Origin: a virus | Lineage: Duplodnaviria > Heunggongvirae > Uroviricota > Caudoviricetes | Direction: 5' to 3' (one strand) | IMG/VR virus record: IMGVR_UViG_3300021400_000025 | Span: 22,479 to 86,478 of that record | Length of the DNA: 64,000 bases | Shown: positions 17,436-47,136 of the stretch, piece after piece | Numbering within the stretch: the stretch's first letter is position 1 | Layout: each line of letters opens with the position of its first letter | The notes under the pieces: model-generated | The model's input: only the letters and a program-made list of their open reading frames with translations | Told to the model about the DNA's origin: nothing | The model's database searches: none | Translations under genes and position numbers: made by a program

Positions 17436-17909
17436 TCACCTTGAACCAACGCTCACGATGTATGTCTTGCCGTCGGCTTCAAGTTCCCATTCCCCGGAAA
17501 TGCCAGAATAGTTGGGTTCAGAATACGCCAGTTGATGTCCATCCGGATCAAACAGCACAACTTCTGCCCAAAGAGTGCCATCCTCCCTATCGTTGGTGTT
17601 CACCTTCAAGTCGGCGAAGCAACCATCCTCGAACTGCGCAGTCTCCTTGAACACAGTGGATTCCTCGTCAAAGTCGTATTCGTCATAGTCAATCTCTTCG
17701 TTCAGAAGTTCATCCCACATCTGGAGGTCGTCGGGCCATAGGTTGATTTCAGCGTAGAGTTCTTCACCAGACTCCTTGAACATCAATATCTTGCCCTTGT
17801 TGGTCTTGAACAATCTGCCTGACTCGGATACATACGCCAATTTCCCATACTTGTTCTTGAAGTATGGGCTTTTCTCAAAAGCCTCCTTCGTTATGTTTAG
17901 TCTTTTCAT
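17436..17909 (-). CDS. 'LNITKE' N-module protein 1 (candidate internal head protein)
   Basis: N-terminal ~47 aa shared with 32023 and 46798 genes; acidic unrelated C-terminal domain. Confidence 0.7.
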   Translation of the reverse strand: MKRLNITKEAFEKSPYFKNKYGKLAYVSESGRLFKTNKGKILMFKESGEELYAEINLWPDDLQMWDELLNEEIDYDEYDFDEESTVFKETAQFEDGCFADLKVNTNDREDGTLWAEVVLFDPDGHQLAYSEPNYSGISGEWELEADGKTYIVSVGSR

Positions 17910-17930
17910 TTAGTGTTTCCTCATTATAAG

Positions 17931-19661
17931 TTAGATTCCAAGCGTCTTCAACTTCTTGTCAAGTTCCTTTGCGTCAAGTGCCGTCCTCTGTGTGGTCTGT
18001 GTTGAAGTTTCATCCTCAACAACCTCCTGGAAGTCCATCACGACCCCATCGCCCTCGCATCCATGTGCGTCTCTGAAGGAAATCTTGAACCTTCTGTTGG
18101 TTTTGGGGTCAAGGAACACCAGTCTGTCCAGTGAAATCTCCACATCACCACCCATCTTCACTGTGGTCTATGAACCCATCTCGAACATCGCGCCATTCTT
18201 CAACTTCAAAGAGGCCCCATCTTGGAATGTCACTTCCGCCCCAGAAGCGACATTCACCTTGGAATCGTCCTGGATGAAGATGTCTGCGGACGAGCTTATC
18301 GACCCCTCGAATTCTGCGATTCCCCTTGACTTCAAAAGATTGTCCGTATCGACGACATTGGAGGCAACGCTTGTGAGAACCAGCTTGTCGGTGTTCAGTT
18401 GATTCACCCTCAACTTCCACGCATCCAATTCCGAGAATCTGCCTTTCTCCGAAACCACATTTCTGAACAAGGCGTTTCCACTTGCGTCCATTCTATATAC
18501 GCCTTGCTTCACATTGAACCTGCTTGGCACATTGGGGTTCGATTTTTCCATCATGTATGTGATTGGATCGGTCAAGGACTTCACAGTCGCGTCTATGCTT
18601 TCATAGTTCCTTGCGTTCCTCTCCATCGCAGATTCAACCTCGGCATATGGATCATAGGAATCTTCGTCGGAGAATTGATCCTCAACGTCAATCTCGTCGA
18701 TCATGGCATCCTGATACGATTCCCAATTCCCATTGGTGGTCAAACGGATTCCAGATGTCGGCTCGTCCTTCTTGATTGAATTCAATGGCGTGACGACGAT
18801 TTCATCTGTGGCAAGCCTTGAATTGTCCAAAATGAGGTTGGAATCCTGGATTGTCACATTGCCCTCTATCAGGGAGTCCACATTCTTGTCTATCCTGAAG
18901 CAGGTGTCATGCTCGGTTCCACTTCCCATTATCTCAAGACACTGGAACTGGTTGTTCCTTGTGTGGGAGACGATGCCCTTGTTGGCTATTATCTGCCCAC
19001 CATTCACGGTCAATGCTGGACCATTCACAGATCCTTTGCCCATTATGATCACATCGTTCTGGACTTTCGCCGTGCCTCCCACTATGATGTCCTTCACCTT
19101 GAGGGACGAAGAGGCCGTTATGTTCAACCCAGTGAAGTTCTCCATGAAGATGTTGTTGGTCTTTATGGTATCTGCGAATATCTTGTTGCCCACCAGTTCG
19201 TCCGTGACTGCCAGCTTCTTGGTGGTTATCTGGTCCGAAACCTCTTTCTTGGAGAAAACCTTGTCTGCTTGAAGGGTGTCGAGCGTCTGCTTGAATCTGT
19301 CGGCGATGATGGTGGATGTCTACACGTCAATCTTCATCATGGAATCCCCAACCACCAGCCTTTGGCCAGCCTTGATTGTTGAAGAGTTGACGCATGCGCT
19401 GTTGTATGTGGTTTCGATTCCAATCAGCGTCTGCCCATTGTTGAATTGGACTGGCTTCAAGAACTCCACCACCTTCTTGAATGAAATCCCGTCATCCCCA
19501 GATGTGGAAAGCACATCTTTGCCATTTTCCACCACTTTGAGGCAACTGGTTGTCATCTGCCCAGTGGATTCCAGGTTTCCGTTCACCTTCATGCTGCCAT
19601 TGAACACATGGATTCCACCATCTTCACTGAAAATCGTCTCTTCTTCTTCTGATTCTGCCAT
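17931..19661 (-). CDS. Beta-rich virion structural protein (576 aa, TAGs at 19320-19322 and 18168-18170)
   Basis: Three ORF-track fragments join in one frame via two TAGs; V/N/G/S-rich repeats; late motif at 19696-19702. Confidence 0.65.
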
Positions 19662-19695
19662 TGTATCACCTTTTTGAACTTGGTTGCGCATATAC

Positions 19696-19735
19696 TATTT
19701 ACAAAAACACCATTGGGAAACCGAAATGGTAAATA
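19696..19735. promoter_or_regulatory. Divergent pair of late-promoter-like GTAAATA motifs
   Basis: TATTTAC 19696-19702 (minus) and GTAAATA 19729-19735 (plus). Confidence 0.7.
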
Positions 19736-19771
19736 ATGTCTGACAATTTCTATCAAGGTGGACATCAAAAA

Positions 19772-20959
19772 ATGGCACAGCAGATTCAATTCATCTATCT
19801 GGCTCAAAGCGAGTTCGACAACATCACACCAGACAATGGCAAAATATACTTCACTTCCGACACGCATAGGATATACAAGGGAGATGTTCTATATGCCGCC
19901 ACCACATTCGACCAATTGAACTTCTCTACAATAGAGGCAAGTGGAATCACAGTCAATGGCAGCGCAGTGGCATTGGAGGGGCATGTCCATTCTGCGTCTG
20001 AAATAGAGGGTTTGGACGCGATTGTCTCTGCAGCCACGTCCAATTTCGCCACTTGGGGACATGCGCATGTGATAGCCGACATCACCAACCTTCCTGGGAT
20101 AACATCTGGAATCACCAACGACACCATAACCAAGGTAAATGGCAATTTCACCAACCTCACGGTGTCCCAGGCGACAATAGACGCGACAACAGTGTCTGCC
20201 CAATAGATGACTGTGGGTGGTTCGAATGTCTCGGTTGAGGGGCATACGCACTCCTTTGCCGATGTGGGTGGACTTTCAAGCCATGTGTCCCAGGTGACGG
20301 CTTCCATTTCAGCATTTGGCGAACAACTTCAAGGAATAACCTCTTTGGGGATATCCAAGTCCACTGCAACATTTGGAGATTTGACCATAACTGGCGAATT
20401 GACATGCTCGCTCGACCAAGTTCAATTTGGAAGCATAGTTGCCTCTGATATATCAGTGAATGGAAGTTCAGTGGCCCTTGTGGGGCACACGCATACTGTT
20501 TCAGACATAGTGGATTTGGACACAACATCTTTCGCTTCGTCCACCCACACGCATCCCGAACTGGTGGGCATCACTTCAAGCACAATAGAGAAGCAAGTGG
20601 CGGTGTTCCAGAGTCTGAGCGTCTCCGCGGCCACGTTCGACGCGACCACGATTGTTGTGGACACCACAGTGCAGGCGCATTCTGGATCGTTCGCCTCCAC
20701 ATTGACTGTGGGTGGTTCAAATGTGGCTCTTGAAGGACATCTCCATTCAATCTCAGATGTGTCTGGTCTTGAATCTGTGGTGTCTGCGACCTCAACATAC
20801 GAGTCCAGAATAGCCTATTTGGAGGGAATTGTAAGTGCGTTGTCCACCACATATGTGACAAGAAGCGAATTTGAGGATTTGTCTGCAAGCATTGAGTCCA
20901 TTTTGGACGACATAATCAGTGGATAGGCTTCGGTTGAAAGCCAGATAAACCAGATTTAA
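19772..20959 (+). CDS. Tail fibre protein with H-x-H repeats (395 aa, TAGs at 20204-20206 and 20924-20926)
   Basis: Repeats GHVHSASEIEGL, GHAHVIADITNL, GHTHSFADVGGL, GHTHTVSDIVDL, GHLHSISDVSGL span the TAG junction. Confidence 0.8.
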
Positions 20960-20977
20960 CAGGGAGTTTCATGACCC

Positions 20978-22474
20978 ATGGGAATATATGAAAAATTGAA
21001 CATCATAAGGTCTGCAAAGACTGACATTTGCCAAGCCATCTTGGACAAGAATCCTTCTGTCCAGCCAACTGACGACATCAGACAATGGCCAACGGCCATT
21101 GCTTCCATATCAGGAGGTTCTTCACCTTCAGCGTCTCAGAACGATGTTGTGTTCATTGACTGTGATGGAAACATTCTCCACTCGTATTCTGCCGAGGAAG
21201 TGGCAAGCATGACAGAACTTCCATCTCTGCCCATACGGGAAGGATTGACATGCCAAGGATGGAACAGAACACTACAGGAATTGAAATCCTATGTCGCTAC
21301 CTATGGACAGTGCGATGTGGGTCCGACATATATTACTGACGATGACCTTACGAAAATAACCATCACAATTCCAGACGCAAAGTACACAAGTGTAAGCATA
21401 TTGTTTTCCCAAACTACAGCAAATGGAGTTCGAGTCAGATTTGGTGACGAAACCGGAACAGAATGGCAGACCACTTCCGGTACGGGGTAGAAGACATTCT
21501 CACATACATACGCACCTTCTCAATATCCGGCGACATATGTCATAACACTTCAGGTAGCAGATGGAACCATGACGCTTTCTGGGAACCTGTTTGCGCATAG
21601 TGGCACCCACAACGCAACCAACCCTCTTGGCGCGTGGAACAGTATGGTGAAAAAAGTCAACATAGGAAACAAGGTCACAAGCATTGGGCAGTATGCCTTT
21701 CAGAACTTCTATTCCCTGGAGGAACTGACGATTCCAAACAGTGTGACAAGCATCGGAAACACAGTGCTTCAGAACTGCTATTCCATCAAGTCTGTGGCAA
21801 TCCCAAGTGGGGTCACAAGCATGGGGAACTATGTATTCTCGTGCTGCTCGTCTCTTTCCAGTGTCCAATTTCCCCAAAGTGTGACAAGCGTTGGAACGAA
21901 CTTCCTGGAATATTGCAGTTCACTGAAAAGGGTTTCCTTGCCAGAAACCATCACATCTCTCGGAACCAACGTCTTCTATACGTGTTATTCGTTGAAGAAG
22001 GTTATCGTGCCAAATGGTGTCACAAGCATGGGAGCAAGCCTATTCTACCAGTGCAGAAGCTTGGAAGAGGTGATATTGCCCAGCAATCTGACCACAATAG
22101 GCAACACGATGTTCTCCTACTGCCAAACTCTTCAAAAGGCATATCTTCCAGATTCACTGACCACGATTGGTTCTTCAATGTTCAACTCTTGCTACTCGTT
22201 GAAGGAGATTCGTATGCCACAAGGAGTTTAGACTATAGGAGAACACGCATTCGTCAATTGCTATGGACTCAAGACATTGGACTTCAGGAGAAGCACATCA
22301 GTTCCAACGCTTGTCAATGTAAACGCATTCCAGAACACCTCAACGGCGAAGGAGATTGTCGTGCCTGACGACCTATATGACGATTGGATAGCAGCGACGA
22401 ACTGGAATTCGACATCGTATTAGATAAGCACAAGCATCGTAAAGGCGTCTGAATCGTCGCTTGGACCACTATAA
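20978..22474 (+). CDS. BspA-type leucine-rich-repeat (LRR_5) tail/adhesin protein (498 aa, TAGs at 21488, 22229, 22421)
   Basis: About nine xPxxVTSIGxxxFxxCxSL repeats; the last repeat (MPQGV*TIGEHAF) and the WIAATNW cap continue across TAGs. Confidence 0.85.
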
Positions 22475-22497
22475 TTGAACAATGGAGGATTTGACAA

Positions 22498-22935
22498 ATG
22501 GCAGTAATATATGAAGAACAAGAAGATGGAATAGTGAAAGCCTATTCCGACCAACACAAGAAGATATTTGGTGGATTTCCTGAAGCTGAATATGATGTGG
22601 TCTATGACCCGAAGGATGCACATAGAACCTATGTCGAGACAGACAAGTACATTTCGTCACAAGAATCCACTTCAACAACAAGAAGGTTCTCCAAATTGTC
22701 TCTTGAATCAGCATTATTCCAAATGGGGCTTCTTGACAAGGTGGATGCATTCATAGATGCGCAATTGGTTGAGAATGAGCATGGGCAGCAAGTTCCGTTG
22801 AGGAGATTCTACAATACTGCCAACGAGTTCAGAGAAGACCATCCATTGTTCGAGAAGTATCTTGGACTTTTGAAGCCTGTTGTCGGTCTGACGGATGCCC
22901 AAATAGAGCAACTTCTTGATTCTTGCCAAGCATGA
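22498..22935 (+). CDS. Tail-fibre-associated hypothetical protein
   Basis: Within tail operon; ..ANEFREDHPLF..LGLTDAQIEQL-type C-terminus; GGAGG RBS. Confidence 0.6.
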   Translation: MAVIYEEQEDGIVKAYSDQHKKIFGGFPEAEYDVVYDPKDAHRTYVETDKYISSQESTSTTRRFSKLSLESALFQMGLLDKVDAFIDAQLVENEHGQQVPLRRFYNTANEFREDHPLFEKYLGLLKPVVGLTDAQIEQLLDSCQA

Positions 22936-22956
22936 CTGGGGAGGGAGTGAATTGAA

Positions 22957-24186
22957 ATGAGCGTACAATCAGCGATAGACAACTTGAAGGGTAGAGTTTC
23001 TGATGCATACGACGCACTTGAAGCAAAGGGCGCGACGATGCCTTCAACCAAAAATACGGCAAACCTTCCAACTTCAATTGGAAGCATTGTTGAGTTGAAA
23101 GGAGAGACAAAAACCATCATCCCAACAACTTCACAACAAACAATCAATCCATCTTCTGGCAAGAATGGCATAACTCAAATAACCGTCAATCCAGTGACTT
23201 CAAGCATTGATGCGAATATAGTTGCATCAAACATCAAGAAGAATGTTTCAATATTGGGCGTCACAGGAACATATGAAGGATCTGGCGGAGGCGGAGGCGA
23301 GCTGCAGGGTTATACCGTGACAGTCAGTCAATATAATAGCGACTATCCAACTGCACTTACTTGTTTCAAGACTGATGGCACGTCATAGGTTGTTTATAGT
23401 GGCACAGTCAACGATGTGGTGTATGTTGGATTTGAGGTTGGTGGCAGTTCTGGAGATGGCGTGGGTGCATGGGAGTCAAGCAACGTTGCACACGATGTAG
23501 TACATGGTATAGCTGATTCGTACACGAGTAGTGGTTCTGGTACCACATATGTTCATCTAACATAGGATACGTCGTTTTTAATGAACGGTTTGTGCTTGTT
23601 AAAAGGGACGATGATTAATCTCCCAAATGGGAAATCCAAACCTATAGAAGAAATAGACTATGACGATGAACTTCTTTGTTGGGACTTCGACAACGGCAAG
23701 TACGAGAAAGCGAAGCCATTCTGGATAAAGAAAGCCCAGAAGAACACCTTCTATTGGATAAACAAGTTCAAGTCAGGGAAGATCATAAAGACCACTGGGA
23801 CGGTTGCTGGACATCGTTTCTTCGACATGGAGGAGAACAAGTTCCTCTACAACATAGAATGCAAAGGTCATCTTTGCTACACCATGAATGGACCAGACGT
23901 TCTTCTTGATTGCGAGTATGTGGAAGAGGATTGCGAGTTCTACAACATCTACACCAACTACCACATGAACCTCTTCGCAAATGGAATTCTCACTGGATTC
24001 AGATACAACAACCTCTATCCAATAAAGGACATGAAGTTCGTGAAGGGTGGAAGAGCCAAGAGAAGCAGAGAAGAGTTCAAGTCTATTCCTGACAGTTGGT
24101 TCTACGGCATGAGGTGTTCCGAGCAAACTGATTCTGCTGAAGAGATAACGTCATATGCTTTGTCAAGGGAAATCATAAAGAAATGA
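22957..24186 (+). CDS. Virion-associated protein with C-terminal Hint domain (409 aa, TAGs at 23386 and 23563)
   Basis: N-terminal ETKTIIPTTSQQTINPSSGKNGITQITVNPV..VSILGVTGT module; CLLKGTMINLPNG..PIEEI..TTGTVAGHRF..FYNI..LFANGILTG Hint blocks. Confidence 0.75.
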
Positions 24187-24587
24187 ACGAATGCGACATA
24201 TATCTGTTCTGCCTTTGGCGCAGGTCGATGGAGTTTTGGAGGCGAATGCTTGAAGAGTTGAAGGGAAGTTATGAGATTCGCCTTTAGATGAGGAGTTTCT
24301 TCCCGAGGTCAATCTCAACTTTGAGGAGATTCTACAATCAGGAGAAGCTCGTGGGAGGATATCAGAGGAAGCTTGATGATGTTGAAGGGGAGTTCTTGTT
24401 TTGCGTTTGCAAGGACGAGAACATGAACGATTTCAAGAAGTTGTTTGATATGAAGAGGAAACTGAGGTCTTTGAGTGGAATAAAGCGCGACTACAACTTC
24501 ATCCACTCAAGCAACACGCTTGAAGAATTTGTGAGACAACTAGAAATAGTGGAGAGAATGCCATGGCAGTAGGTGACATATACATAA
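24183..24587 (+). CDS. Possible NDP-kinase-like fold protein (134 aa, TAGs at 24285 and 24570)
   Basis: ATG overlaps upstream TGA; frame open only via TAG; YNFIHSSNTLEEFVRQLEI resembles NDK HxSD..RE motif. Confidence 0.4.
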
Positions 24588-25174
24588 AGTTGAAAAGCGA
24601 TAACAAGACAAGGAAGGAGATGTGTTGCTTGGCGACACATCTATTCAACTACATTGAGGAATACAGGATAAACGTTGATGCAGATGAACTTGTCATCCCC
24701 AAGGGTTTCTATCTTCTTCAGAGGGTGTATCCAAAGCCGGAGATACCTGAGGGGAAGATGAAGGGATACCATTTCAAGATTGAAGATGGTGTCATGAAGA
24801 GATATTATCTTGTGTGCTCCGGCGTGGACGACATGCAACTTCTCACTGTCGAGGACTACGAGGAAGCTGTTCAAGAATATCTCGATTCTACGGTTCAGCA
24901 GAAGGGCTACGACAATGTCTACACTTGCCTTTCCTACAAGGGAGATCCTGACCCCATATTCTCAGCAGAGGCCGATGCAGTTCTTGCTTGGAGAAGCCAA
25001 GTTTGGAGGACAGCACAGGGCGTATTGAACCAATGGCAGCAAGGTCAGATTGAGCAACCTACCATCCCCCAGGTCATATCCCAATTGCCGACATTGACCT
25101 GGCCAGATGTTGCATCATCAAGCAGGAAGGTCAAGACCAGAAAAAGGTCATCTTCCAAAAGTCACGCTGTCTGA
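24563..25174 (+). CDS. Tail-fibre-associated/assembly protein
   Basis: VQEYLDSTVQQKGYD..AEADAVLAWRSQVW..PTIPQVISQLP pattern common beside phage fibre genes. Confidence 0.6.
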   Translation: MAVGDIYIKLKSDNKTRKEMCCLATHLFNYIEEYRINVDADELVIPKGFYLLQRVYPKPEIPEGKMKGYHFKIEDGVMKRYYLVCSGVDDMQLLTVEDYEEAVQEYLDSTVQQKGYDNVYTCLSYKGDPDPIFSAEADAVLAWRSQVWRTAQGVLNQWQQGQIEQPTIPQVISQLPTLTWPDVASSSRKVKTRKRSSSKSHAV

Positions 25175-25230
25175 CGCAGTGCTTCCCAACAACCTTGTAT
25201 TTGACACCAGTTGTGGTAAATAGTCATATT

Positions 25231-25512
25231 ATGGCTACGATACCAAAGAATCCATATAACAAGATGAAGAACACCTCAGTTCAGATGGATAATTTCATCT
25301 TCACCGAACTGAAGTCCAACAGAAAGTCCTTCTACGTCTATTGTGGGAAGTCCAAGAAACGCATATACCAAGGCAATTGCTCCAAGGAGATAAAGAACAT
25401 CTACTTCGACGGGACTTGCGTGGTGTGCATTTGCGACAACAAGACGTACATATTCGGGCCGCAGGACATGAGGTATCCATTGAAGAATTGGCGGCAGATA
25501 AGGGAGTTTTGA
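25231..25512 (+). CDS. Small basic Cys-containing protein (stand-alone domain copy)
   Basis: GTAAATA at 25216-25222; paralogous to the C-terminal domain of 25515..26396. Confidence 0.7.
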   Translation: MATIPKNPYNKMKNTSVQMDNFIFTELKSNRKSFYVYCGKSKKRIYQGNCSKEIKNIYFDGTCVVCICDNKTYIFGPQDMRYPLKNWRQIREF

Positions 25513-25514
25513 TT

Positions 25515-26396
25515 ATGAAACGCACTATGAAGATAAATGAGAGCTGGGATCCAGACTATGACGATCAGCCATGCAACCAATTTGGGGAGAAGTGGCAAAT
25601 CGTCAAGGACACCTATTTGGATCAGGTGATTAAGGACATAATGGAAGACATCCAGATAGACCCCTACCATGATGGTCCGAAGATGGAGCGGCTTGCGCTT
25701 GGAAATCTTCACTTGTGCGAAGATGGGCATCTTATTGCCACAATCTACGGTGGCGCGAATGGTGGAGGGTTTCGTGGGATTGAGAGCAACTGGCCGTTCT
25801 ACATGTCCCTTGTCCGAAAGTTCCTGGGGAAATTGCTTGACTATGACAATAGGCAGTTCTTCAAGGATGTGTGGATGATTGACTGGAGCAACGATTGCTG
25901 CGATGATTGCTGGACATTGGTTCTCGGGCTTGAACTGACGGACAAAGAGAAACTTCAGATGATTGAATGTGATTTCCCAGTTCTGAATCCAGAAAAACTC
26001 CACATCAGTCTGGACGCTGCGGCAGACTTGTTCACCCCAATGCCGGTTGCCCAGAACGTACAGGCTTCAATTCCGCAGGCGAATGAACCATGCAACGAGG
26101 CTTCGTAGAAGAAGAACAACATTCCAAAGAACCCATACAACAGCCTCAAGAACTCAAAGACCTCCCAAGTGGACAACTTCGTGTTCGCGGAAATCCAATC
26201 CAACAGAAGGTCGTTCAACGTCTACTGTGGGAAGAACAGAAAGCGCATATATCAAGGTTCTTGTGGGAAGGACATACAGAGCATCTACTTCGATGGGACA
26301 TGCGTTGTTGCCATGTGCCAGAACAAGACATACATATTCGGCCCAAACGACATGAGATATCCATTGAAGAACTGGCGCAAGATCCGTGAATTTTGA
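25515..26396 (+). CDS. Two-domain protein (293 aa, TAG at 26106-26108) with C-terminal copy of the upstream domain
   Basis: EPCNEAS*KKNNIPKNPYN in frame; IPKNPYN..YPLKNWR(K/Q)IREF shared with 25231 gene. Confidence 0.75.
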
Positions 26397-26422
26397 CAGA
26401 CTTCATGTGTATAATTCCATAT

Positions 26423-27406
26423 ATGGAAGAATGGATTAAACAGCGAAGCGATGAGGAATGGAAGTGGGTTGTTGGCGAGATATTCAAGAAGCCTGACTTC
26501 GATGATGTTGCCAAGGAGATGAAGGGGCTGCACGATGGAACCAAGAACAGGTTCACGAAGGTCGCCATGTCAAAGACCTCCCAATACTACTTCTTCGAGG
26601 AGCGGACAAAGGTCAAGATTGGGAAGTTCCCATTCCACCAGATAGTTGAAAACAAGCAGGCATATGAAGATGTCGCCGAATTGGCGCACAGATACTTCAA
26701 CAAGAATCCTGTCGGCTACACTTTCGACAACTGGCTCAAAAGATATGTGCGGGATGTTGGAAGGTTGTTCAAGACCTATGGCATCCCCTCGCAGTTCCCA
26801 TTCTCCGAGGCGTTCAGCCTATATCAGCAGCACAATGTGAATGGGAAGGTCTTCGACTATTGCTGTGGCTGGGGGAACAGACTTCTCGCGGCGATGTGCA
26901 ACGACCTTGACTACACGGGCGTTGACACGAACCCAGCCCTTGTGGAGAAATTGAGGGAAATGGCAGTCGACTTCAACGCAGTGAACAACCTGGATTTGAA
27001 TGTTGACGTCCGTTGCCAAGGGAGCGAAGAACACAATCCAGAATGGGACAACAAGTTCGGTCTGTGCTTCTCAAGCCCACCATATTTCGATCTTGAACTC
27101 TACAATGGGGAGAACACCTCAACCACGAAGTTCCCAGAGTACACACAGTGGCTTGAAGGGTACTTGAAGCCAACGATATTGAATTGCCGCGACTATCTCA
27201 TCCAAGGTGGGCGTTTCATCATGTCAATCAAGAACATGGGAAGCAGGAAGATGTACGATGAGGCGATGAAGATGTGCCTGGATTCAGGAATGCAGCTTCT
27301 TGACGAACAAAGTCTCTCTGTCACAAGAAGGACCGGGACAAAGAGTCAGCAGGAAAAAGGTCTGCAAGCCAGCAACGAGAAGATGCTTGTCTTCCAGAAG
27401 ATCTGA
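26423..27406 (+). CDS. DNA amino-methyltransferase (probably N4-C or N6-A)
   Basis: FDYCCGWGNRL SAM-binding motif followed by FSSPPYF catalytic motif. Confidence 0.8.
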   Translation: MEEWIKQRSDEEWKWVVGEIFKKPDFDDVAKEMKGLHDGTKNRFTKVAMSKTSQYYFFEERTKVKIGKFPFHQIVENKQAYEDVAELAHRYFNKNPVGYTFDNWLKRYVRDVGRLFKTYGIPSQFPFSEAFSLYQQHNVNGKVFDYCCGWGNRLLAAMCNDLDYTGVDTNPALVEKLREMAVDFNAVNNLDLNVDVRCQGSEEHNPEWDNKFGLCFSSPPYFDLELYNGENTSTTKFPEYTQWLEGYLKPTILNCRDYLIQGGRFIMSIKNMGSRKMYDEAMKMCLDSGMQLLDEQSLSVTRRTGTKSQQEKGLQASNEKMLVFQKI

Positions 27407-27409
27407 CAG

Positions 27410-27438
27410 TTTACCAGAGCCAAGTCTTGTTGTATAAT
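27410..27438 (+). promoter_or_regulatory. Sigma70-type promoter for DNA polymerase
   Basis: TTTACC-N17-TATAAT. Confidence 0.6.
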
Positions 27439-27455
27439 TCAATGGGTAATTGGAT

Positions 27456-30329: not shown

Positions 30330-30380
30330 TGCCATTGTTGTAAATACTTCTATACAACCATTAAAGAGGTATATGGCAAC

Positions 30381-30632: not shown

Positions 30633-30635
30633 ACA

Positions 30636-31604
30636 ATGAAGAGAATTGTAAAAGAGAGCTACGAGGTTTCTCCTGAACTTGAAAAACGTCTGAACTCCAT
30701 CCTATCTGACGAGTTCTTGGCTGCTGAGGCGTATCGTCTGGCGATTGTCGCGATGAAGGGCAACAAGCAGCATAGGCTTGAGGAAATAGCTGAGAAGAAT
30801 GGGGAGGACGAACTTGAAGACCACTTCAAGAACCTCTATGAGTGGATGCAGTCAAAGGGAATCAAGGTTGTGACTGACCGGGACGAAATGGCTCAAATCA
30901 CGAACGGCTCGATTCTGAAGTTCAAGGATGGAATGTCCACGAAGGAGATTGTTGACCAGTTGATTCTTTCCGAGGAAGAAGCCATTGACATCTACGAAGA
31001 CACGATTCCACACACTGAGCTTGACTTGAATGTGATGCTTTCTGGCTTCTTGAAGGACGAGAGGGAGCATCTCAAGGAACTTGTGGATTGCCGCGACGAA
31101 ATGGGTGGAAAAGCCCCCATTGAGGACAAGGTAATTGATTTGGACGATGAACCAGACGAAGAAGAAAATGAAATGGAACAAATTAACGAGGATGCAAAAA
31201 TGATTCACAAGGATAAACCCTTCAAAGTAAGGAATATTGATTGGGATGCTGACCTCCCAACAGGACCAATAAAAGTGGAGTTTGGCGCACCACTGGAGTC
31301 CAGATCTGGTGACGAGAAATATAACATCACTTTGTGGCTTGAAGAAAAATATGAAGCAAAAGTTCTGGATTTTGACTTCAAGCGCGTTCGCAACTTTGAC
31401 GAATATTCTCCTGACTATGTGGTGAGCAACATAGAATGGGATGTCAATCTTCCAAAGTCAACAGTGGTTAATGTGCCTTATGATGTGGTCAAGGCTGGCT
31501 ACGATGAAGTTGAGGAATACATTTCCGACTATCTGTCTGACACATATGAGTTCACCCATTATGGGTTTGACTGCCCACAGCTTGATAGAATGTATAATTC
31601 ATGA
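30636..31604 (+). CDS. Ferritin-like four-helix-bundle protein fused to two tandem small domains
   Basis: DEFLAAEAY..EDELEDH..EEEAIDIY..DEREH diiron-type E/H pattern; duplicated VxNIxWDxxLP..LxxxY..FD domain. Confidence 0.75.
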   Translation: MKRIVKESYEVSPELEKRLNSILSDEFLAAEAYRLAIVAMKGNKQHRLEEIAEKNGEDELEDHFKNLYEWMQSKGIKVVTDRDEMAQITNGSILKFKDGMSTKEIVDQLILSEEEAIDIYEDTIPHTELDLNVMLSGFLKDEREHLKELVDCRDEMGGKAPIEDKVIDLDDEPDEEENEMEQINEDAKMIHKDKPFKVRNIDWDADLPTGPIKVEFGAPLESRSGDEKYNITLWLEEKYEAKVLDFDFKRVRNFDEYSPDYVVSNIEWDVNLPKSTVVNVPYDVVKAGYDEVEEYISDYLSDTYEFTHYGFDCPQLDRMYNS

Positions 31605-31930
31605 ACTGGTTAAGACAGATATTTGGAGCGGTTTTGGTGGTTGGACTTCTTTCTGGTTGCATGAACCTCTATACACGTTGCCCATTCACCGACAAGAAGA
31701 TTGAGGACACATATCAATCCACACAGGAGACATTTGCGTTGTCCTATGTGGTGATGTTCCCACAGGTTCTTCCAATGAACGAATCTGATGGATTGGTGTG
31801 GCAGAACATCTTCACCATCCCAGTTGGATGCCTTTGCTTCGTGGATGTGGCGTTGGAAGGGGTTGTTGACACCATTTGCTGGCCATATGATTCGCATGTT
31901 TCAAAGAAGCACAAAAAGGATTTTGAATGA
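31601..31930 (+). CDS. YceK/YidQ-like lipoprotein
   Basis: Lipobox LLSG|C; DVALEGVVDTICWPYD family-like motif. Confidence 0.65.
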   Translation: MNWLRQIFGAVLVVGLLSGCMNLYTRCPFTDKKIEDTYQSTQETFALSYVVMFPQVLPMNESDGLVWQNIFTIPVGCLCFVDVALEGVVDTICWPYDSHVSKKHKKDFE

Positions 31931-32022
31931 ATTTGTGTAAATAATATTCGAGTTGAACATTCAATGACTAGTCACATGAGGGTGTTCACAAGAGACAACT
32001 AAACTCTATAGAGGAAATCAAA

Positions 32023-32850
32023 ATGAAGAAATTGAACATTACGAAGGAACAGTACGATGAGAGCAAGTATTTCAACCAGAAGTACGGTGCCCTCAAGTTT
32101 GTTTCTGAGAGCGGCAAGCTCTACAAGACCGACAAGGGCGTTGTGATTGCCCTTGAGTCCGCGAAGGACGACGATGATGAAGAGCCAAAGGGCGACGATG
32201 AGGAGCCAAAAGGTGATGATGAGCCGAAGGGTTCTGATTCCACTGAAGGCGCTGACGAGGTGAAGGATGTTGTGAAGGACGTTCTCGTTGGTGTCATTGA
32301 CACGGTGAAGGACATCGCTGCTGACAAGGGCATTGAACTCCCTGGCGAAGACGAGGGTGATGCTTCTGACGATGATGACGAGGAAGATGAAGTTGACTTT
32401 GACGACCTTGACGACGATGAACTTGACGATCTTCGCGATGGTGAGCTGGAGATTGGCGAGGGTGATGAGTGCAAGGATGGCGAGTGCAAGGGTGGCAAGT
32501 GCCTTGACAGGGAGTGTGGTGGCAAGAAGCCAGCATTCCGCGAGAGCGCAGCCCGCAAGGCTCGTCTGGCAAAGGTGCGCGAGTCCCTTCGCCGTCGGAT
32601 CCGTGCAAGGAAGGTTCTTGAATCCATCCGTCGTCGTCGCATGGTGAAGAAAATGATGGAGGCTCGCAAGGCTCGCATTGCCAAGAAGGTTCTTGAGTCT
32701 GCCCGCGAGCGCCGCCTTGCCAAGAAGGTGATGGAATCCAGGAAGCTCCGCGCAAGGAAGGTTCTTGAGTCCATTCGCAGACGCAGACTTGCCAAGAAGG
32801 TCATGGAGTCTCGCAGACTTCGCGCACGCCGAGCAAGGCTTGCGAAATAA
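32023..32850 (+). CDS. 'LNITKE' N-module protein 2 with acidic linker and Arg/Lys-rich ES repeats
   Basis: Shared N-module, D/E-rich middle, repeated KV(L/M)ES(I/A)RRRR; GTAAATA at 31937-31943; strongly biased codons. Confidence 0.8.
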   Translation: MKKLNITKEQYDESKYFNQKYGALKFVSESGKLYKTDKGVVIALESAKDDDDEEPKGDDEEPKGDDEPKGSDSTEGADEVKDVVKDVLVGVIDTVKDIAADKGIELPGEDEGDASDDDDEEDEVDFDDLDDDELDDLRDGELEIGEGDECKDGECKGGKCLDRECGGKKPAFRESAARKARLAKVRESLRRRIRARKVLESIRRRRMVKKMMEARKARIAKKVLESARERRLAKKVMESRKLRARKVLESIRRRRLAKKVMESRRLRARRARLAK

Positions 32851-32878: not shown

Positions 32879-32911
32879 AAAGATGCTTCCTTTACAGGAG
32901 GCATCTTTTGT
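32879..32911 (+). terminator. Terminator overlapping the next promoter
   Basis: AAAGATGCTTCCT-TTAC-AGGAGGCATCTTT stem-loop + TGTT. Confidence 0.8.
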
Positions 32912-32919
32912 TGTATAAT
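32891..32919 (+). promoter_or_regulatory. Sigma70-type promoter for metK operon
   Basis: TTTACA-N17-TATAAT; the -35 lies in the terminator loop. Confidence 0.65.
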
Positions 32920-32926
32920 ATATGTG

Positions 32927-33445: not shown

Positions 33446-33457
33446 GAAAGGAATAAC

Positions 33458-34549: not shown

Positions 34550-34567
34550 TGGTAAATAGTCAATGTT

Positions 34568-41587: not shown

Positions 41588-41588
41588 A

Positions 41589-42461
41589 ATGGGATATGCA
41601 GAAGTGAACAAGGAATTGGTTTCCAAATACAAGGTTGACGACACCATATTGGAATCCTACTTCAAGAATGCAAGCAACCAGAAGGTTGATGGGGTGGTGT
41701 TTCCATTGAGAATCGACAACAGGCAATATTGCTCCCCAACCGACTACCAGGGAAGCAAGCCGAGTTGCTGTGGCTACTCCACGGCGCAGATATTGGAATC
41801 CCTCAACTGGGCTAGAACAGGAAAGATTGTGCAGATGGATGCGGATCAGATATACGCAAAGTCCAAGGAGACGGACAAGTAGATGGGTCAGGGTGGAACA
41901 TATCCAGACTTGGCCATGGTGAAGGGGCTTGAACTGGTTCCATGGGGGTGTCAATATGCGTTGAAGACTTCCAATTCAGACGATGTGGATGTGTTGAAGC
42001 GGGCAATCCACCAGAACATGCTCGTGTCAGTGAACATGAACGTCACCAGAGACATATACGATTTGGATGGGGACAACTTCGTGTACAATGGCAATGGCAA
42101 CAAACTTGGTGGACATTCAATGGTGTGCTGTGGATATGACGAGGAATCGAAGATGCTCATCATGCAGAACCATTGGGGGACAATATGGGGGTTGAAGGGC
42201 TTCTTCCTGTGCCCATATGACGTGTGGAGAAAGCAAAACTCTTTGACTTGCTGGTATGAAAGGGTGGAAGCCACCACTTCACATGCGAAAAGGAGCAAGA
42301 CCACCAAGGTTGATGTGTCAAAACCCGAGAAGCCAAATGCTGAAAAGCCAAATGCCGAGGAACATCTTCCTGGCAAGAAGGAATCCACCACTCCTCCAGA
42401 TGTGGGTGTTTCAAGCAAGGAAATTGTAAATAGTATCACAACCAACATTCAACAAGGGTAA
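41589..42461 (+). CDS. Papain-like (C1) cysteine peptidase (290 aa, TAG at 41880-41882)
   Basis: QGSKPSCC (catalytic Cys) before the TAG; GGHSMVCCGY and QNHWG (His/Asn) after it. Confidence 0.85.
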
Positions 42462-42467
42462 AGTAAA

Positions 42468-45400
42468 ATGAGAATAGTCATAGACAAGGATGTTTCAGAG
42501 ATTCAACTTCTTCAGGAGTCATATGAAAAGAGCAAGCCATCGTACAAGGTTCTTGCGGTGGAGAATGGCGAGAAGTTCGTGTATGGAACGAAGATTCGCA
42601 ACATCAATGAAGCAGTTGACGCTGTGTATGACATTGCGTGGGACGAGAACTTCAACGATTGCCAATCTGAGATTGTGGAGGTGTTTGGCGAGAGCGAACA
42701 TGTGATTTGGTCTTCTGACCCCAAGGTGCAGGTTTGCGAGTCAGTGTTGTTCGTTGAAGCTGGAGACAACAAGGACGGCAGCACGGCGAACAAGGACGCC
42801 AAGACTGGTCAGAACCAAAAGGGTTTCTTTGGCAAGTTGAAGGATGCCGCTGGAAAGGCTGCTGCAGGTGCCAAGAAGGCTCTTCAGGGACTTGCCAAGG
42901 GACTTAACATAGTTGGGGCGATGACGAAGCAGTTCTCAAAGGACGCTCTCAAGAAGTGGAGAGAGGGAGGATTGTTCAACAAAGAAGGACGCATCACTGG
43001 TCTTGGCTACAAGGTCATGACGGGACAGGTGAAGAACACCATTCCAGTGGACACTGGAAACAAGAACGACGACATCACACAGGCTTGGAAGGTTGCGCAG
43101 TCAAATGCCATGAATGCCCTCAAGAAGCAAGGATATACCGTGAATGGCGAAGTCAAGGCAATTGTCAAGACCGACAAGGATCCAATCACATTGTCTGCTG
43201 ATGTGACTGACAAAGATGGCAACGCACAGACAATCGAGTTCAATCAGGATGGAACAATGGTTGATGGTGGTGCCCAGAATGCCCAGAATGGTGGCGAAGG
43301 TGCTAACGCCAATGGTGGTGGAAACAATGCTGCTGGAGCCAATGGAAAGGATGGTGGTGGAGCTGGTGGCGCAAACACCCAGCAGATAACTCCTGACCAG
43401 GCGCAGAAGAACCCCAAGGCAGCTCTTGGAAACCTCGCCACGCGCGTGGCGAACCTTGAAAGGGAGGTTGGAATTGCGGCAGAATCCAAGTGGAACTACA
43501 ACAACGAGCAGAAGTTCGCCAAGAAGGATGGATATGAGAGGCAGACCATCAAGAGGTTCTTCAACGAGATGAACGATGAGTCTGTGAAGAACATCAAGTT
43601 CATCCGCCCAGATGGCACATTCAAGTTGTATGACATCTCCAATGGATCATAGGCGTATTCTGAATTCAAAAAAGACTTCAGGGAGTCCACATAGAAGGTT
43701 GAGAAGTCTGGTGACTTCAAGGAATGTCGGGTTGTCATTGAATCTTCTGGAAGCAGAAGCAAGTTGAATGGCTTCAAGTTCTCCGACTTTGGCGTGGCTG
43801 ACGATTTCGATTCAGATTCCAAGACCATCATCATCAGGGAGAGCGTAATCAAGAATGTTCCTGAAAAGCCAGATGGTAAAAAAAAAGCAAATGAACCACA
43901 ACATGAATCCATTGTGAATGAGTCCTCGATTGAGGGCATCTCCAAGAATCCTGAGCCAAATGGATTCACATTGGAGTTGGACAAGAAAGATCCACTTGAA
44001 GAGGTCAAGTCCCTTCTTGCAGCCATGAACAAGTACAATGGATTCGACAAGAAGAAGATTGATGACATCCAGGATGGTTCAATATCAGATGGCGTGACAA
44101 CATATCCAGACGTTCCAACTTTTGAGACTCCAAAGAAGCAGGAACCACTGGAAACTCCAAAGCAGGAAACGCCAACAATTGAAACTCCAGATGTTGTGAA
44201 GGAAGCCGAGGGCGATGATGATGCTGGTGGTGGAGGAGACGACGCTGGTGGAGACGCTGACCCATTTGCTGGTGGAGGAGACGATGGTGGTGGTGATGAT
44301 GCTGGTGGTGGCGACGATCCATTCGCTGGAGGAGGAGATGACGCAGGTGGGGGAGATGATGCTGGGGGAGATGCAGGCCCATTCGCTGGTGGTGGTGACG
44401 ATGCAGGTGGTGGTGGAGACGCAGGCGCCGCAGACATGGGTGGTGGAGGAGATGCCGCAGTAGATGGAGCCACAGAAGACAATCCCACCTCAGGAGAACC
44501 TGCACCAGACGATGCAGTGAACACTGACGCCCAAGACAATCCCAAGTCCCAATACAACATCAATGTGACCAAGCCTTTCAACCAGGACGAGAATTTCTCC
44601 CTCAATGATGAGGAGCAGAAGGAGTTCTTTGGGAAGATTGACCAGTTGGTGAAGATCCCCGACATGGACAACTATTCGCTTTACCTCTACCAGATAACGC
44701 CAGAGAACATGAACCTTGACGATGTTCACTACATCGAGGCTCTTTACCAGTTGTCTGTGAAGTTGGGGCTGCTTGAGGACATCTACGCCGACTCCAACTT
44801 GCTTGACAAGTACAGCTCCTACAAGTATTCTGTTCTGAAGGATGGGGAGGATGACGCGACCCAGGGGGAGGACGCATTGACTGTGACCGAGGGGACGACC
44901 AAGGTTCAGGACGATAACGAAAAGAAGGCTGCTGAACTCAACAAGAAGATGAAGCAGAAGAACGACGACAGGCGTGGTTCAGCATGGACTAAACTTGACA
45001 AGGACAAGAATGGCGTTGACAAGCCTGTGATAATAGACACAAGGAAGGATGGCTGGACATTCGACGGAAAGGATAATGACAAGAAGTTGATTGACTCCAC
45101 CGACGAAGGCAGTTTCCATGGACTTGGTTGGATTGCCACCTTCAAGGCAATGCAGTTCGGCTCCCCAAGGTATCTCTCCCTCTACATCAAGAGGAATGGG
45201 GATGCAAAGGCAGAGGAACAGTGCAGAAAATACCTTGAGAAGCTCTCCTATACGGAGATTGAGTTCGTGAACATCGACGAGGTTGACCCATACGAGTATG
45301 TCTACAGAATGGGTCAGGGAATGAAGACCCCAGAGACTGTGAGGACGGAGAAGTATGCGAACGAGGAGGTTCCAGTGACCTATTTCGAGAACAACGAAAC

Positions 45401-45848
45401 CAAGGTTCCAGAGTCAATCCCAGGGGACATCAAGCGCGATGTCAAGAGGGTGATAACCAAGTTGAACGCGGAAATCCGTGGGACAAAGCAGTTCAACTTC
45501 TTGAAGGAATGTGGCGTTGAGAAGCCACAGCTTGACCATCTTGAGTTCTTGACGCACTACAAGACAGCGCAGGTCAACGAGACATTGAGCGAGACGACCT
45601 ACAAGTTCGTGCTGAAGAAGAACGATAGCATGATGAGCAGGATGTTCTTCTCCAACATGAAGGAGAAATTGTTCAGGTATCTTGGGACATTCGCAACCAA
45701 GTACAACATGGAATGTGGATGCGAGGCAACGCCAACTGCAGTGACAATCAGCTTCATGAGAAGCGATCTTGGAAATCCTGGATACGATCTTGAGACAATG
45801 GTGGACGCAGACGTTGCGCTTCCAGAGACAACAGCGGACCAGATTTGA
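42468..45848 (+). CDS. Large multi-segment late protein (1126 aa, TAGs at 43650 and 43692)
   Basis: Two ORFs join in frame; G/N/A- and G/D-rich low-complexity linkers; GTAAATA at 42426-42432; several xES motifs. Confidence 0.75.
44213..44465 (+). repeat. Coding low-complexity GGDDAGG(DPF)AGG repeats
   Basis: Repeated GATGATGCTGGTGGTGG-like units inside CDS 42468..45848. Confidence 0.8.
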
Positions 45849-45859
45849 CAGAGGATGAC

Positions 45860-46774
45860 ATGAAAATGAAAAGAAGAAGAACAATCAAGGAAAGTTCCAG
45901 CGAGGCGTTGATTAAGCAGGCGTTGGAAGCGGCAATCAAGGCAAAGAATCTGCTGGACGATGCCGCGAACTCAATACGGGACGCAGTTGGCGAGACATTC
46001 CTTTTCGCAAGGCTTGACTCCCATTCAATGGATCTTGACGACACCATTGACGATATCAAGGGGGTTCTGAATGGAACTGTTGACCCCACTGACGATACTG
46101 TTGATGCCACTGATGGTTTCGATAATCCCTTTCTTGAATCCAAAAACAAGTTCGTCAAGGAGGAATCCTCATATAACGACAAGGCATTGCAGAAGTTGAT
46201 GGCGTTGGTTGAGTATTATGGAGACCTACGCCAGGGTTGGGGCCGCACACTGGCCACAGGACAAGACACTGAATACTACAAGAAAAAGGCGCAGCAGACT
46301 CTTGACGACATCAAGGAACATGCAACGCCATACATGGCATACACAGCATATGATGGCAAGGAGGAGTTCGAGGAAAGTGGCTCGGCGGAAGGTGAGACCG
46401 AGTGGTTTAACAATCATGGCGACATGAAGAAGAATCTTCCAATGGACTGCATTTTGGAGTGCTCGTCTGGTGGAAGTGTTGACGATTCTGTTGACTATTG
46501 GGTGAACAAGTTGAATTTCCATGCCCCAACCGAAAAGGGGTTGAGTTATGTTCGGGAGTATGGTCTTGACGACATTGAACCCGAGGATGTTGACAAGTAC
46601 GTTCTTTGGATAATGTGCGGAAACATCAAGGAAGAGGCCTATGAGTTCTGCCGCGATGGTTCTGAATGGGATTATGTTGACAAGGACGCATATCCCGAGG
46701 ACATGGATGATTGGGGAGAGGAAGATTGGGATAGATTCCAGGATGAAGTCGCAATCTGCCACCTTGGGATGTGA
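45860..46774 (+). CDS. Acidic multi-domain hypothetical protein (MKRRRTIKES tag)
   Basis: GAGGA RBS; segments separated by IKES, FLES, VKEES, FEES. Confidence 0.7.
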   Translation: MKMKRRRTIKESSSEALIKQALEAAIKAKNLLDDAANSIRDAVGETFLFARLDSHSMDLDDTIDDIKGVLNGTVDPTDDTVDATDGFDNPFLESKNKFVKEESSYNDKALQKLMALVEYYGDLRQGWGRTLATGQDTEYYKKKAQQTLDDIKEHATPYMAYTAYDGKEEFEESGSAEGETEWFNNHGDMKKNLPMDCILECSSGGSVDDSVDYWVNKLNFHAPTEKGLSYVREYGLDDIEPEDVDKYVLWIMCGNIKEEAYEFCRDGSEWDYVDKDAYPEDMDDWGEEDWDRFQDEVAICHLGM

Positions 46775-46797
46775 TTTTAACCAATGAGGAAACTGAA

Positions 46798-47136
46798 ATG
46801 AAGAAACTTAACATAACGAAAGAGAGATTTGAGAAGTCCAGGTACTTCACGAAGAAGTATGGCAAACTTGAATATGTGTCTGAATCTGGCAGACTTTTCA
46901 AGACGAACAAAGGCAAAGTGCTGATGTTCAAGGAATCTATCGTGGATGATGATGACGATTATGCTCGTTTTGCAATGAGTGACTTGACTGATAACATAGA
47001 GAAATACTTGAAGTCAAATAAAGACGAGCTTGATTTGGAGTCTGTTGAAAGAGTTATGGACTACAACACCGCCTTGCTTCTGACATTCAATACAGGGAAC
47101 AAAATCAAGATTTTGTTTGACGATGAGTTAGACTGA
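46798..47136 (+). CDS. 'LNITKE' N-module protein 3
   Basis: MKKLNITKERFEKSRYFTKKYGKLEYVSESGRLFKTNKGKVLMFKES shared module. Confidence 0.75.
   Translation: MKKLNITKERFEKSRYFTKKYGKLEYVSESGRLFKTNKGKVLMFKESIVDDDDDYARFAMSDLTDNIEKYLKSNKDELDLESVERVMDYNTALLLTFNTGNKIKILFDDELD

What the first reader, a model, noticed from the sequence alone, without database searches (positions are those of the whole stretch)
17436..47136. Shared ~47-aa 'MK(K/R)LNITKE..YF..KYG.L..VSESG.L(F/Y)KT.KG....(K/L)ES' module fused to three unrelated cargo domains
Seen: genes 17436-17909(-), 32023-32850 and 46798-47136 share this N-terminal module (also visible at DNA level), which ends exactly at an ES, after which the sequences are unrelated. 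All lie in late-motif operons up to ~29 kb apart. Known: T4 internal proteins use an N-terminal capsid-targeting sequence removed by gp21 after Glu. Inferred: a portable, folded packaging tag for loading different cargoes into the head; I do not recognise it as a described family.
Basis: partly seen in the sequence, partly recalled or inferred. Interest (0 to 1): 0.78.

Follow-up and report, generated by a model that had tools for sequence, protein, structure and literature searches.

The report
Shared head-loading tag on megaphage proteins
A 418-kb uncultivated T4-related megaphage, probably from the rumen, puts one conserved 46-residue folded domain, ending in a protease-type cut site, in front of many unrelated and fast-changing small proteins; it most likely tags them for loading into the phage head, but this rests on sequence evidence only.

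Summary
The three window genes share a 45-46-residue N-terminal module. The whole 418,068-bp phage genome has nine full copies. Two complete relatives have six and nine copies. A profile search finds 380 protein clusters carrying the module.

The module is under purifying selection as a protein. It folds confidently in prediction (pLDDT 89). It matches no Pfam, PHROG or solved fold.

It always ends in hydrophobic-x-Glu followed by a small residue: Glu in 228 of 228 members, Phe at P3 in 91%, Ser/Gly/Ala at P1' in 90%. Similarity stops at that point.

The same pattern occurs at the conserved LFTE|AAP site of the T4-type major capsid protein, which matches T4's FLTE|A. It also punctuates the scaffold protein. 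It brackets a conserved linker, E|S-T-KKFGKKF-x-KE|S, that joins cargo cassettes in polyprotein forms.

Cargo is swapped at syntenic loci between close relatives and is unusually acidic.

Best reading (confidence about 0.6): a folded, portable capsid-targeting propeptide removed by the gp21-type prohead protease. This would be a new variant of the T4 capsid-targeting sequence. Neither cleavage nor packaging is shown.

Side finding: in-frame TAG codons in the protease, scaffold and module genes, together with an amber-suppressor tRNA.

The parts
17772..17909 (-). Module (residues 1-46, ends ...LMFKE) of gene 17436-17909
17436..17771 (-). Cargo 1 (starts SGEELYAEINLW). It is an acidic alpha+beta domain. 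In other phages the same domain is a second cassette placed behind the KKFGRKF linker.
32023..32157 (+). Module (residues 1-45, subfamily ending ...VVIALE) of gene 32023-32850
32158..32850 (+). Cargo 2: an acidic low-complexity region, then a Cys-rich stretch, then an Arg/Lys-rich array from about 32554 that is punctuated by eight hydrophobic-x-E-S/A motifs. Its locus is syntenic in relatives and the C-terminal part of the cargo is similar there.
46798..46935 (+). Module (residues 1-46) of gene 46798-47136
46936..47136 (+). Cargo 3: a 66-residue acidic tail. At the syntenic locus of a relative whose flanking genes are 72-94% identical, an unrelated cargo takes its place.
31937..31943 (+). GTAAATA promoter-like motif, 86 nt upstream of gene 32023
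3470..4516 (+). Scaffold-like coiled-coil protein gene next to the capsid gene. It has an in-frame TAG at 3728-3730, is enriched in x-E-S motifs, and has GTAAATA at 3428-3434.
4557..6179 (+). Gp23-family major capsid protein. The predicted maturation site is LFTE54|AAP (codon 54 = 4716-4718).
16756..17346 (-). GroES-like co-chaperonin gene (T4 gp31 analogue) directly downstream of module gene 1. The arrangement is syntenic in relatives.

Best explanation
The 45-46-residue module is a small folded domain (beta-alpha-alpha-beta-beta-beta, net charge about +7.6). I propose that it docks the precursor protein into the assembling prohead core of this T4-type megaphage. The gp21-family prohead protease then cuts after the invariant Glu at the module's end (F-K/N/R-E|S/G/A), and at the same motif on both sides of the KKFGKKF linker in multi-cassette precursors. 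This would free the mostly acidic cargo domains inside the head, from which they would be ejected with the DNA. Shown here: the family, its copy number, selection on the module, the predicted fold, the junction pattern, the same pattern in the capsid and scaffold proteins, cassette shuffling at these boundaries, and shared late-type promoter motifs and TAG codons with head genes. Inferred: docking, cleavage, packaging and ejection.
For: (1) The genome has a T4-type head system: Gp23 capsid protein at E 1e-70, Peptidase_S77 (gp21 family) at E 4e-12, alignable with T4 gp21, and a coiled-coil scaffold gene beside the capsid gene. (2) Junction pattern over 228 members: P1 Glu 100%; P3 Phe 91%, otherwise V/M/A except one Thr; P1' Ser 76%, Gly 11%, Ala 3.5%; variable from P2' onward. 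T4 gp21 cuts after L/I-x-E (PMC9026906). (3) The capsid protein has LFTE|AAP, invariant in three genomes while the next 10-13 residues vary. T4 gp23 has FLTE|A at the corresponding place (that T4 is cut at Glu65|Ala66 is from my own memory). (4) ES dipeptides are not enriched genome-wide, but the two most ES-enriched of 674 ORFs are a module protein (10 observed vs 1.2 expected, P 7e-7) and the scaffold (8 vs 1.2, P 3e-5). Most scaffold sites are kept as E-S/G/A in the relatives. (5) Cassette boundaries coincide with x-E|S. The cargo of gene 17436-17909 follows the module directly here, but in P0153 it follows FLE|SAKKFGRKFVKE|S. There are 43 linker occurrences, all bracketed this way, and some polyproteins carry the module internally. 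(6) The module is under protein-level purifying selection: codon positions 1-2 are 81% identical, position 3 is 54%, and flanks are at random level. (7) AF2 gives pLDDT 89 for the module alone, and the junction lies in a lower-confidence loop in the full-length model. (8) GTAAATA lies 24-86 nt upstream of five of the nine module genes (P 4e-4). It also precedes the tail sheath gene, the prohead protease gene and the scaffold-capsid operon. (9) Cargo is replaced at syntenic loci between relatives, as at the T4 internal-protein loci (PMC9026906).
Against: There is no virion proteomics and no cultured representative. The module is 2.5-5 times longer than the T4 capsid-targeting sequence (10-19 residues). 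The cargo is strongly acidic (mean -0.096 charge per residue vs -0.012 for the proteome), whereas the T4 internal proteins are basic. One member carries a hydrophobic, membrane-like segment. In some natural forms the module is internal rather than N-terminal. The scaffold sites do not all have a hydrophobic residue at P3.
Confidence: 0.6

Rival explanations
1. The module is a permanent anchor, not a removed propeptide. It would fix variable acidic domains to the outside of the capsid, the tail or another virion structure, as decoration or adhesion modules.
For: The pattern of a conserved N-terminal adaptor with variable C-terminal domains is typical of phage fibre and decoration proteins (general knowledge). 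The genes have late-type promoters. The module is a folded domain rather than a linear peptide.
Against: This reading does not explain the invariant Glu with a small P1' residue exactly where similarity ends. It does not explain the double-bracketed KKFGKKF linker, the polyprotein forms, or the same pattern in the scaffold and capsid maturation sites.
Confidence: 0.12
2. The conserved basic module is itself the product. It would be a 5-kDa DNA-binding or DNA-condensing mini-protein supplied by nine genes. The acidic C-terminal parts would be charge-neutralising pro-regions that are cut off and discarded.
For: The module has a net charge of about +7.6 and the cargo about -10.8. 90% of cargoes are acidic, compared with 56% of the proteome. 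Fast cargo turnover would fit disposable parts. Gene 32023-32850 pairs an acidic region with a polybasic array.
Against: The one cargo modelled folds confidently (pLDDT about 90 for the domain). Cargoes recur as conserved families that are shuffled between contexts, which argues that they have functions of their own. This rival still needs the same protease cut, so it overlaps with the main reading.
Confidence: 0.1
3. The module is unrelated to the virion. It would be a shared interaction domain that brings variable late effector domains to a host or phage factor in the cytoplasm, with no cleavage.
For: The cargoes have no known families, and their hypervariability resembles anti-defence arsenals.
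Against: The module genes share the late promoter motif and in-frame TAG codons with head genes. The cleavage-type pattern at every boundary would be left unexplained.
Confidence: 0.1
4. The conservation is a DNA-level effect, either recent duplication and gene conversion or a recombination site for cassette exchange, and not a protein function.
For: Two copies also share upstream DNA (54% identity over 80 nt).
Against: Third codon positions are only 54% identical, against 81% at positions 1-2. Only 53% of codons coding the same amino acid are the same codon. Flanks are at random level. 23 residues are invariant across all nine copies.
Confidence: 0.03

Closest known systems
Capsid-targeting sequence (CTS) of T4 internal proteins IPI/IPII/IPIII and Alt
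   Same: It is a targeting sequence shared by otherwise unrelated proteins of a T4-type phage. It ends in hydrophobic-x-Glu, the gp21 cleavage motif. The cargo genes vary between relatives. The T4 CTS is portable to foreign proteins (PMC9026906).
   Different: The T4 CTS is a 10-19-residue linear peptide. Here it is a 45-46-residue unit predicted to fold. It is present nine times per genome and sometimes sits inside polyproteins joined by a dedicated double-cut linker. The cargo is acidic rather than basic. A 12-residue natural mini-version does exist in this genome.
Long N-terminal propeptides of inner-head and ejection proteins in phiKZ-like giant phages (SPN3US gp53/gp54, phiKZ gp93-95; PF12699 paralogues)
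   Same: These are giant phages with paralogous head proteins whose propeptides, up to about 125 residues, are removed by a gp21-related protease after x-x-Glu and are thought to target the proteins into the prohead (PMC5694885).
   Different: In those phages the paralogues share their mature parts. Here only the propeptide is shared and the mature parts are unrelated. No PF12699 or any other Pfam family is detected. The capsid here is T4 Gp23-type.
Polyvalent proteins and MuF-fused toxins of phages (Iyer et al. 2017, PMC5512222)
   Same: Both are multi-cassette proteins. From my memory of that paper, which I only saw listed and did not read, they are thought to be packaged in heads, delivered with the DNA and processed into separate effectors.
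   Different: As I recall, those proteins are very large and built from recognisable enzymatic domains with embedded peptidases. Here the cassettes are small (median cargo length 97 residues), have no known families, and would be cut by the head protease.
Encapsulin cargo-loading peptides
   Same: A short portable tag directs diverse cargo into an HK97-fold shell (general knowledge).
   Different: Those tags are usually C-terminal, are not removed, and bind the shell protein directly. This is a functional analogy only.

Membership tests
T4-type CTS internal head proteins | The same genome encodes a gp21-family prohead protease, a gp22-like scaffold and a gp23-family capsid protein | tested here: met
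   PF03420 at E 4e-12, PF07068 at E 1e-70, and a coiled-coil scaffold gene adjacent to the capsid gene. The scaffold has no sequence similarity to T4 gp22.
T4-type CTS internal head proteins | The targeting sequence ends in the protease motif hydrophobic-x-Glu | tested here: met
   Glu at P1 in 228 of 228 members, and F/V/M/A at P3 in all but one.
T4-type CTS internal head proteins | Short linear N-terminal peptide of 10-19 residues | tested here: not met
   The module is 45-46 residues and predicted to fold. It is internal in some members. Only one 12-residue mini-variant exists, at genome 301486-301752.
T4-type CTS internal head proteins | Actual cleavage by the prohead protease and presence of the mature part in virions | not testable with these tools
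   The phage is uncultivated and no proteomic data were available.
phiKZ-like inner-body paralogues (PF12699) | Match to PF12699 in the mature part | tested here: not met
   No Pfam family at E<=0.001 in 78 diverse members, nor in the three window proteins.
Any described protein domain (Pfam, PHROGs, PDB, BFVD) | Significant sequence or fold match of the module | tested here: inconclusive
   Pfam and PHROGs gave no hit to the module. Best Foldseek results were E 0.77 against PDB and E 0.27 against BFVD. VIA-align gave best Z 3.0 against generic beta-alpha-beta-beta-beta half-domains. The PDB sequence profile search gave nothing meaningful. For a 50-residue model, weak matches cannot exclude a known fold.

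The most novel reading that the evidence does not exclude
These rumen megaphages run a cassette system for head-delivered effectors. It would have three parts: one universal folded loading domain, a standard double-cut linker (E|S-T-KKFGKKF-x-KE|S), and dozens of interchangeable small acidic domains (candidate anti-defence or DNA-mimic proteins). The cassettes would be swapped between loci and strung into polyproteins, and their expression would be gated by amber read-through together with the head protease and the scaffold.
Probability: 0.4. Interest if true: 0.8.

Novelty: new variant of a known kind. Interest (0 to 1): 0.66.

Why it matters
If correct, this shows how a very large phage loads a big and rapidly changing repertoire of proteins into its head, using one folded tag and one linker. 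It would extend the T4 capsid-targeting idea from a 10-residue peptide to a domain-plus-polyprotein design. It would point to several hundred uncharacterised small acidic proteins as candidate injected host-takeover or anti-defence factors in rumen phages. It would also offer a natural, well-delimited tag and cleavage site for packaging foreign proteins. The shared in-frame TAG codons add a possible translational timing link between these genes and head maturation.

Tried and rejected
1. DNA and protein searches of the INPHARED phage collection with the region and with one module protein found nothing.
2. The ESM Atlas search gave no usable hit.
3. The literature search for the motif strings gave no papers.
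4. The complex prediction of module plus scaffold returned 'no answer' (score 0.00). It is not evidence either way.
5. The Foldseek PDB search with the full 157-residue model found no significant match for cargo 1.
6. Pfam and PHROG scans of 78 diverse members gave no informative cargo family.
7. phmmer of the protease against PDB sequences found nothing at E<=0.01. The family assignment rests on Pfam and the alignment with T4 gp21.
8. Comparison of the module with T4 gp68 showed no similarity.
9. A genome-wide list of ORFs bridged by TAG was too noisy to say how many genes are read through, because 171 of 674 crude ORFs end in TAG.
10. A scan of 185,579 species genomes found the module only on one 10-kb contig of a genome titled 'uncultured bacterium isolate RUG14821'. 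I take 'RUG' to mean a rumen uncultured genome and the contig to be phage DNA, but I did not check either.
11. An RNA-level or DNA-level explanation of the conservation was rejected on codon-position divergence.
12. Targeting to a phage nucleus (chimallin-type) was considered but not tested. The head genes here are T4-type, not phiKZ-type.
Full report
**Observation**

They share an N-terminal block with 25 of 47 invariant positions, and their sequences are unrelated after it.

The window is bases 22479-86478 of a 418,068-bp virus record with direct terminal repeats, rated complete. A profile of the block finds nine full copies in that genome at E 1e-25 to 9e-32, plus one truncated form. Two complete relatives of 434 kb and 414 kb carry six and nine copies.

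A profile search of 1.84 billion representative proteins gives 380 hits, 355 of them at E<=1e-10. Nearly all have the module at residue 1, followed by different sequences. Among 224 retrieved proteins with cargo of at least 25 residues, the cargo falls into at least 78 unrelated groups.

The only hit in 185,579 species genomes is a 10-kb contig of a genome titled 'uncultured bacterium isolate RUG14821'. I read 'RUG' as a rumen uncultured genome, so the clade appears to be rumen megaphages. No source gives any member a name beyond 'hypothetical protein'.

**What the module is**

- *Selection.* The nine DNA copies are on average 72% identical. Codon positions 1-2 are 81% identical and position 3 is 54%. 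Only 53% of codons for identical residues are the same codon. Identity falls to random level immediately outside the module. The conservation is therefore selection on the protein, not recent duplication or gene conversion.
- *Fold.* AlphaFold2 folds the module alone with pLDDT 89: a short strand, two helices and three strands. The same fold appears in the full-length 157-residue model. There the junction residues lie in a loop within a lower-confidence stretch (mean pLDDT 75 for residues 41-50).
- *No known relatives.* Pfam and PHROGs give no hit to the module. Foldseek against PDB and BFVD gives nothing better than E 0.27. An exhaustive structural alignment gives at best Z 3.0 against generic half-domains. 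A PDB sequence profile search gives nothing meaningful.
- *Charge.* The module is basic, with mean net charge +7.6.

**The junction**

Across 228 members with a full module, the residue at the module's end is always Glu. P3 is Phe in 91% and V/M/A in all but one of the rest. P2 is K/N/R. P1' is Ser 76%, Gly 11%, Ala 3.5%. From P2' onward the sequence is variable. Length variants such as F-V-K-E-S keep a hydrophobic residue at P3. This is the pattern recognised by the T4 gp21 protease, which cuts after L/I-x-E (PMC9026906).

**Head context**

- The window encodes a Gp23-family capsid protein at E 1e-70. It is under 31% identical to the best matches in the phage collection searched.
- The genome encodes a Peptidase_S77 (gp21-family) protease that aligns with T4 gp21 along its length.
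- The capsid protein carries LFTE|AAP. This is invariant in three genomes while the following 10-13 residues differ. T4 gp23 has FLTE|A at the corresponding place. That T4 is cut between Glu65 and Ala66 is from my own knowledge.
- The gene just upstream of the capsid gene encodes a coiled-coil, scaffold-like protein.
- ES dipeptides are at the expected frequency genome-wide (581 observed, 599 expected). Yet the two most ES-enriched of 674 crude ORFs are module protein 32023-32850 (10 vs 1.2 expected, P 7e-7) and this scaffold (8 vs 1.2, P 3e-5). Most scaffold sites are kept as E-S/G/A in the relatives. In T4 the scaffold gp22 is cut into pieces by gp21.

**Cassettes and linker**

A second conserved element, E-S-(T/S)-KKFGKKF-(x)-K/N-E-S/G, occurs 43 times in the retrieved proteins. 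In this genome it occurs only in module proteins.

- *Position.* It sits either directly after the module or between two cargo domains, and it is bracketed by the cleavage-type motif on both sides.
- *Same cargo, different contexts.* The cargo of gene 17436-17909 follows the module directly here (MFKE|SGEELYAEINLW). In P0153 it is the second cassette, behind FLE|SAKKFGRKFVKE|SGEELYAEINLW. The second domains of two other genomic paralogues are fused directly to the module in other phages.
- *Internal modules.* Some members, including genomic gene 388740-389780, have the module inside a longer protein. In most of them a Glu-containing junction precedes it, for example VME|SRK-M or FNE|S-M.
- *Conclusion.* Domain boundaries coincide with x-E|small throughout, as expected for a polyprotein cut by one protease.

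**Expression**

An upstream-enriched motif, (T/G)GTAAATA, resembles the T4 late promoter TATAAATA (the T4 sequence is from my own knowledge). It precedes 58 of 674 ORFs.

- It lies 86 nt upstream of the tail sheath gene.
- It lies 37 nt upstream of the prohead protease gene.
- It lies 36-42 nt upstream of the scaffold-capsid operon.
- It lies 24-86 nt upstream of five of the nine module genes (binomial P 4e-4).
- The other four module genes lie 1.5-4.4 kb downstream of such a motif in mostly same-strand gene runs.

**Evolution of cargo**

- The locus of gene 17436-17909 is syntenic in two relatives. It sits between a 341-residue and a 76-residue gene on one side and a GroES-like gene on the other. 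The module is conserved there and the cargo is unrelated.
- The locus of gene 46798-47136 is flanked by genes 72-94% identical in a relative, yet the cargo is unrelated beyond the module.
- Gene 32023-32850 keeps its locus in the relatives and its C-terminal cargo is similar there. Two other copies (genome 413378 and 357400) also have relatives with similar cargo.
- One relative has an extra module gene after the DNA polymerase gene.
- Cargo is much more acidic than the proteome: -0.096 vs -0.012 net charge per residue, P 5e-47, with 90% of cargoes acidic.
- No cargo matches Pfam. The few PHROG hits are uninformative.

**Interpretation**

The best-supported reading is a folded capsid-targeting propeptide. 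It would dock precursors in the prohead core and be removed by the gp21-type protease, with the linker providing double cuts between cassettes. This works like the T4 capsid-targeting sequence. It does not meet that family's defining short linear form, and it has features not described for T4 or phiKZ-type phages. Cleavage, packaging and ejection are inferred, not shown.

Three rivals remain possible: a permanent virion anchor, the basic module being the real product with acidic pro-regions, and a cytoplasmic interaction domain. Each leaves the boundary pattern or the link to head genes unexplained. A purely DNA-level explanation is disfavoured.

**Side finding: in-frame TAG codons**

- *Protease.* The protease gene has an in-frame TAG inside a stretch that aligns with T4 gp21 on both sides.
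- *Scaffold.* The scaffold gene starts at window 3470 and has an in-frame TAG at 3728-3730, where a relative has Glu.
- *Module genes in this genome.* Module gene 340518-341348 'stops' at a TAG that is followed in frame by the linker motif. Module gene 357400 continues in frame for 319 more codons after a TAG, and its orthologue is continuous there.
- *TAG versus Gln.* That orthologue in turn has TAG where this genome has Gln. In relatives, three module copies have TAG inside the module; at two of these positions other family members have Gln.
- *Suppressor tRNA.* The genome encodes a tRNA with anticodon CTA, apart from its block of 31 tRNAs and a tmRNA.
- *Reading.* This fits partial TAG-to-Gln recoding of late genes, a phenomenon already described in other phages (my recollection; I read no paper on it here).

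Noticed in passing
window 3728-3730; genome 224572-225309 (L031 1927-1929); genome 340518 and 357718-357720; genome c[268611-268687]: In-frame TAG codons occur in the scaffold gene, the prohead protease gene and two module genes. At three of the TAG positions seen here and in relatives, paralogues or orthologues have Gln (Glu or Tyr at two others). A phage tRNA with anticodon CTA is also present. This looks like amber read-through or partial recoding of late genes. How many of the 171 TAG-ending ORFs are affected is unresolved.
   Followed up: partly
window 32554-32847 (C-terminal part of gene 32023-32850): An Arg/Lys-rich array is punctuated every 11-14 residues by V/M/L-x-E-S/A, and the arrangement is conserved in four relatives. 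If cut at each site it would give highly basic peptides of about 12 residues, which are candidate DNA-condensing counter-ions. An acidic region and a Cys-rich stretch precede it.
   Followed up: partly
genome 301486-301752(-) (L010): An 88-residue ORF begins MKKLNITKKFNE|S, which is the first eight and the last four residues of the module joined together. It is a natural mini-tag of T4-CTS size and lies directly downstream of a gene that has the GTAAATA motif.
   Followed up: no
genome 340518-341348, 413378-414133, 416076-417023 and many database members: A conserved linker peptide, E-S-T-KKFGKKF-x-K-E-S, sits between cargo cassettes. One member (P0094) has it extended as KKFGKKFGRKFGRKF. Its sequence resembles the last strand of the module (GK..F-K-E).
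   Followed up: yes
genome 231541-242512: A dense block of 31 tRNA genes plus a tmRNA gene (tag peptide GNDYSMAA) lies on the minus strand. One tRNA-Arg lies apart at 109662.
   Followed up: no
window 16756-17346(-): A GroES-like co-chaperonin gene (PHROG 3188, E 2e-6) with a 100-residue N-terminal extension lies directly downstream of module gene 17436-17909. The arrangement is syntenic in relatives.
   Followed up: partly
window 31601-31930(+): A 109-residue ORF just upstream of gene 32023 starts with a lipoprotein-type signal (…VVGLLSGC…). It is conserved at 40-51% identity in relatives at the same place.
   Followed up: no
whole genome; e.g. window 31937-31943 and 3428-3434: Two upstream-enriched motif families were found. 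(A/T)TGGTAAATA(G/C/A) is late-like and sits before the sheath, protease and scaffold genes. TGTATAATTGA is an extended -10-like motif, presumably early. The late-like motif also precedes a topoisomerase gene (window 54054), so it may not be strictly 'late'.
   Followed up: partly
L015 (G001 20966-27109): The 434-kb relative has an additional module gene immediately after the DNA polymerase gene. It is absent at the same place in this genome, so module genes are gained and lost at several loci.
   Followed up: no
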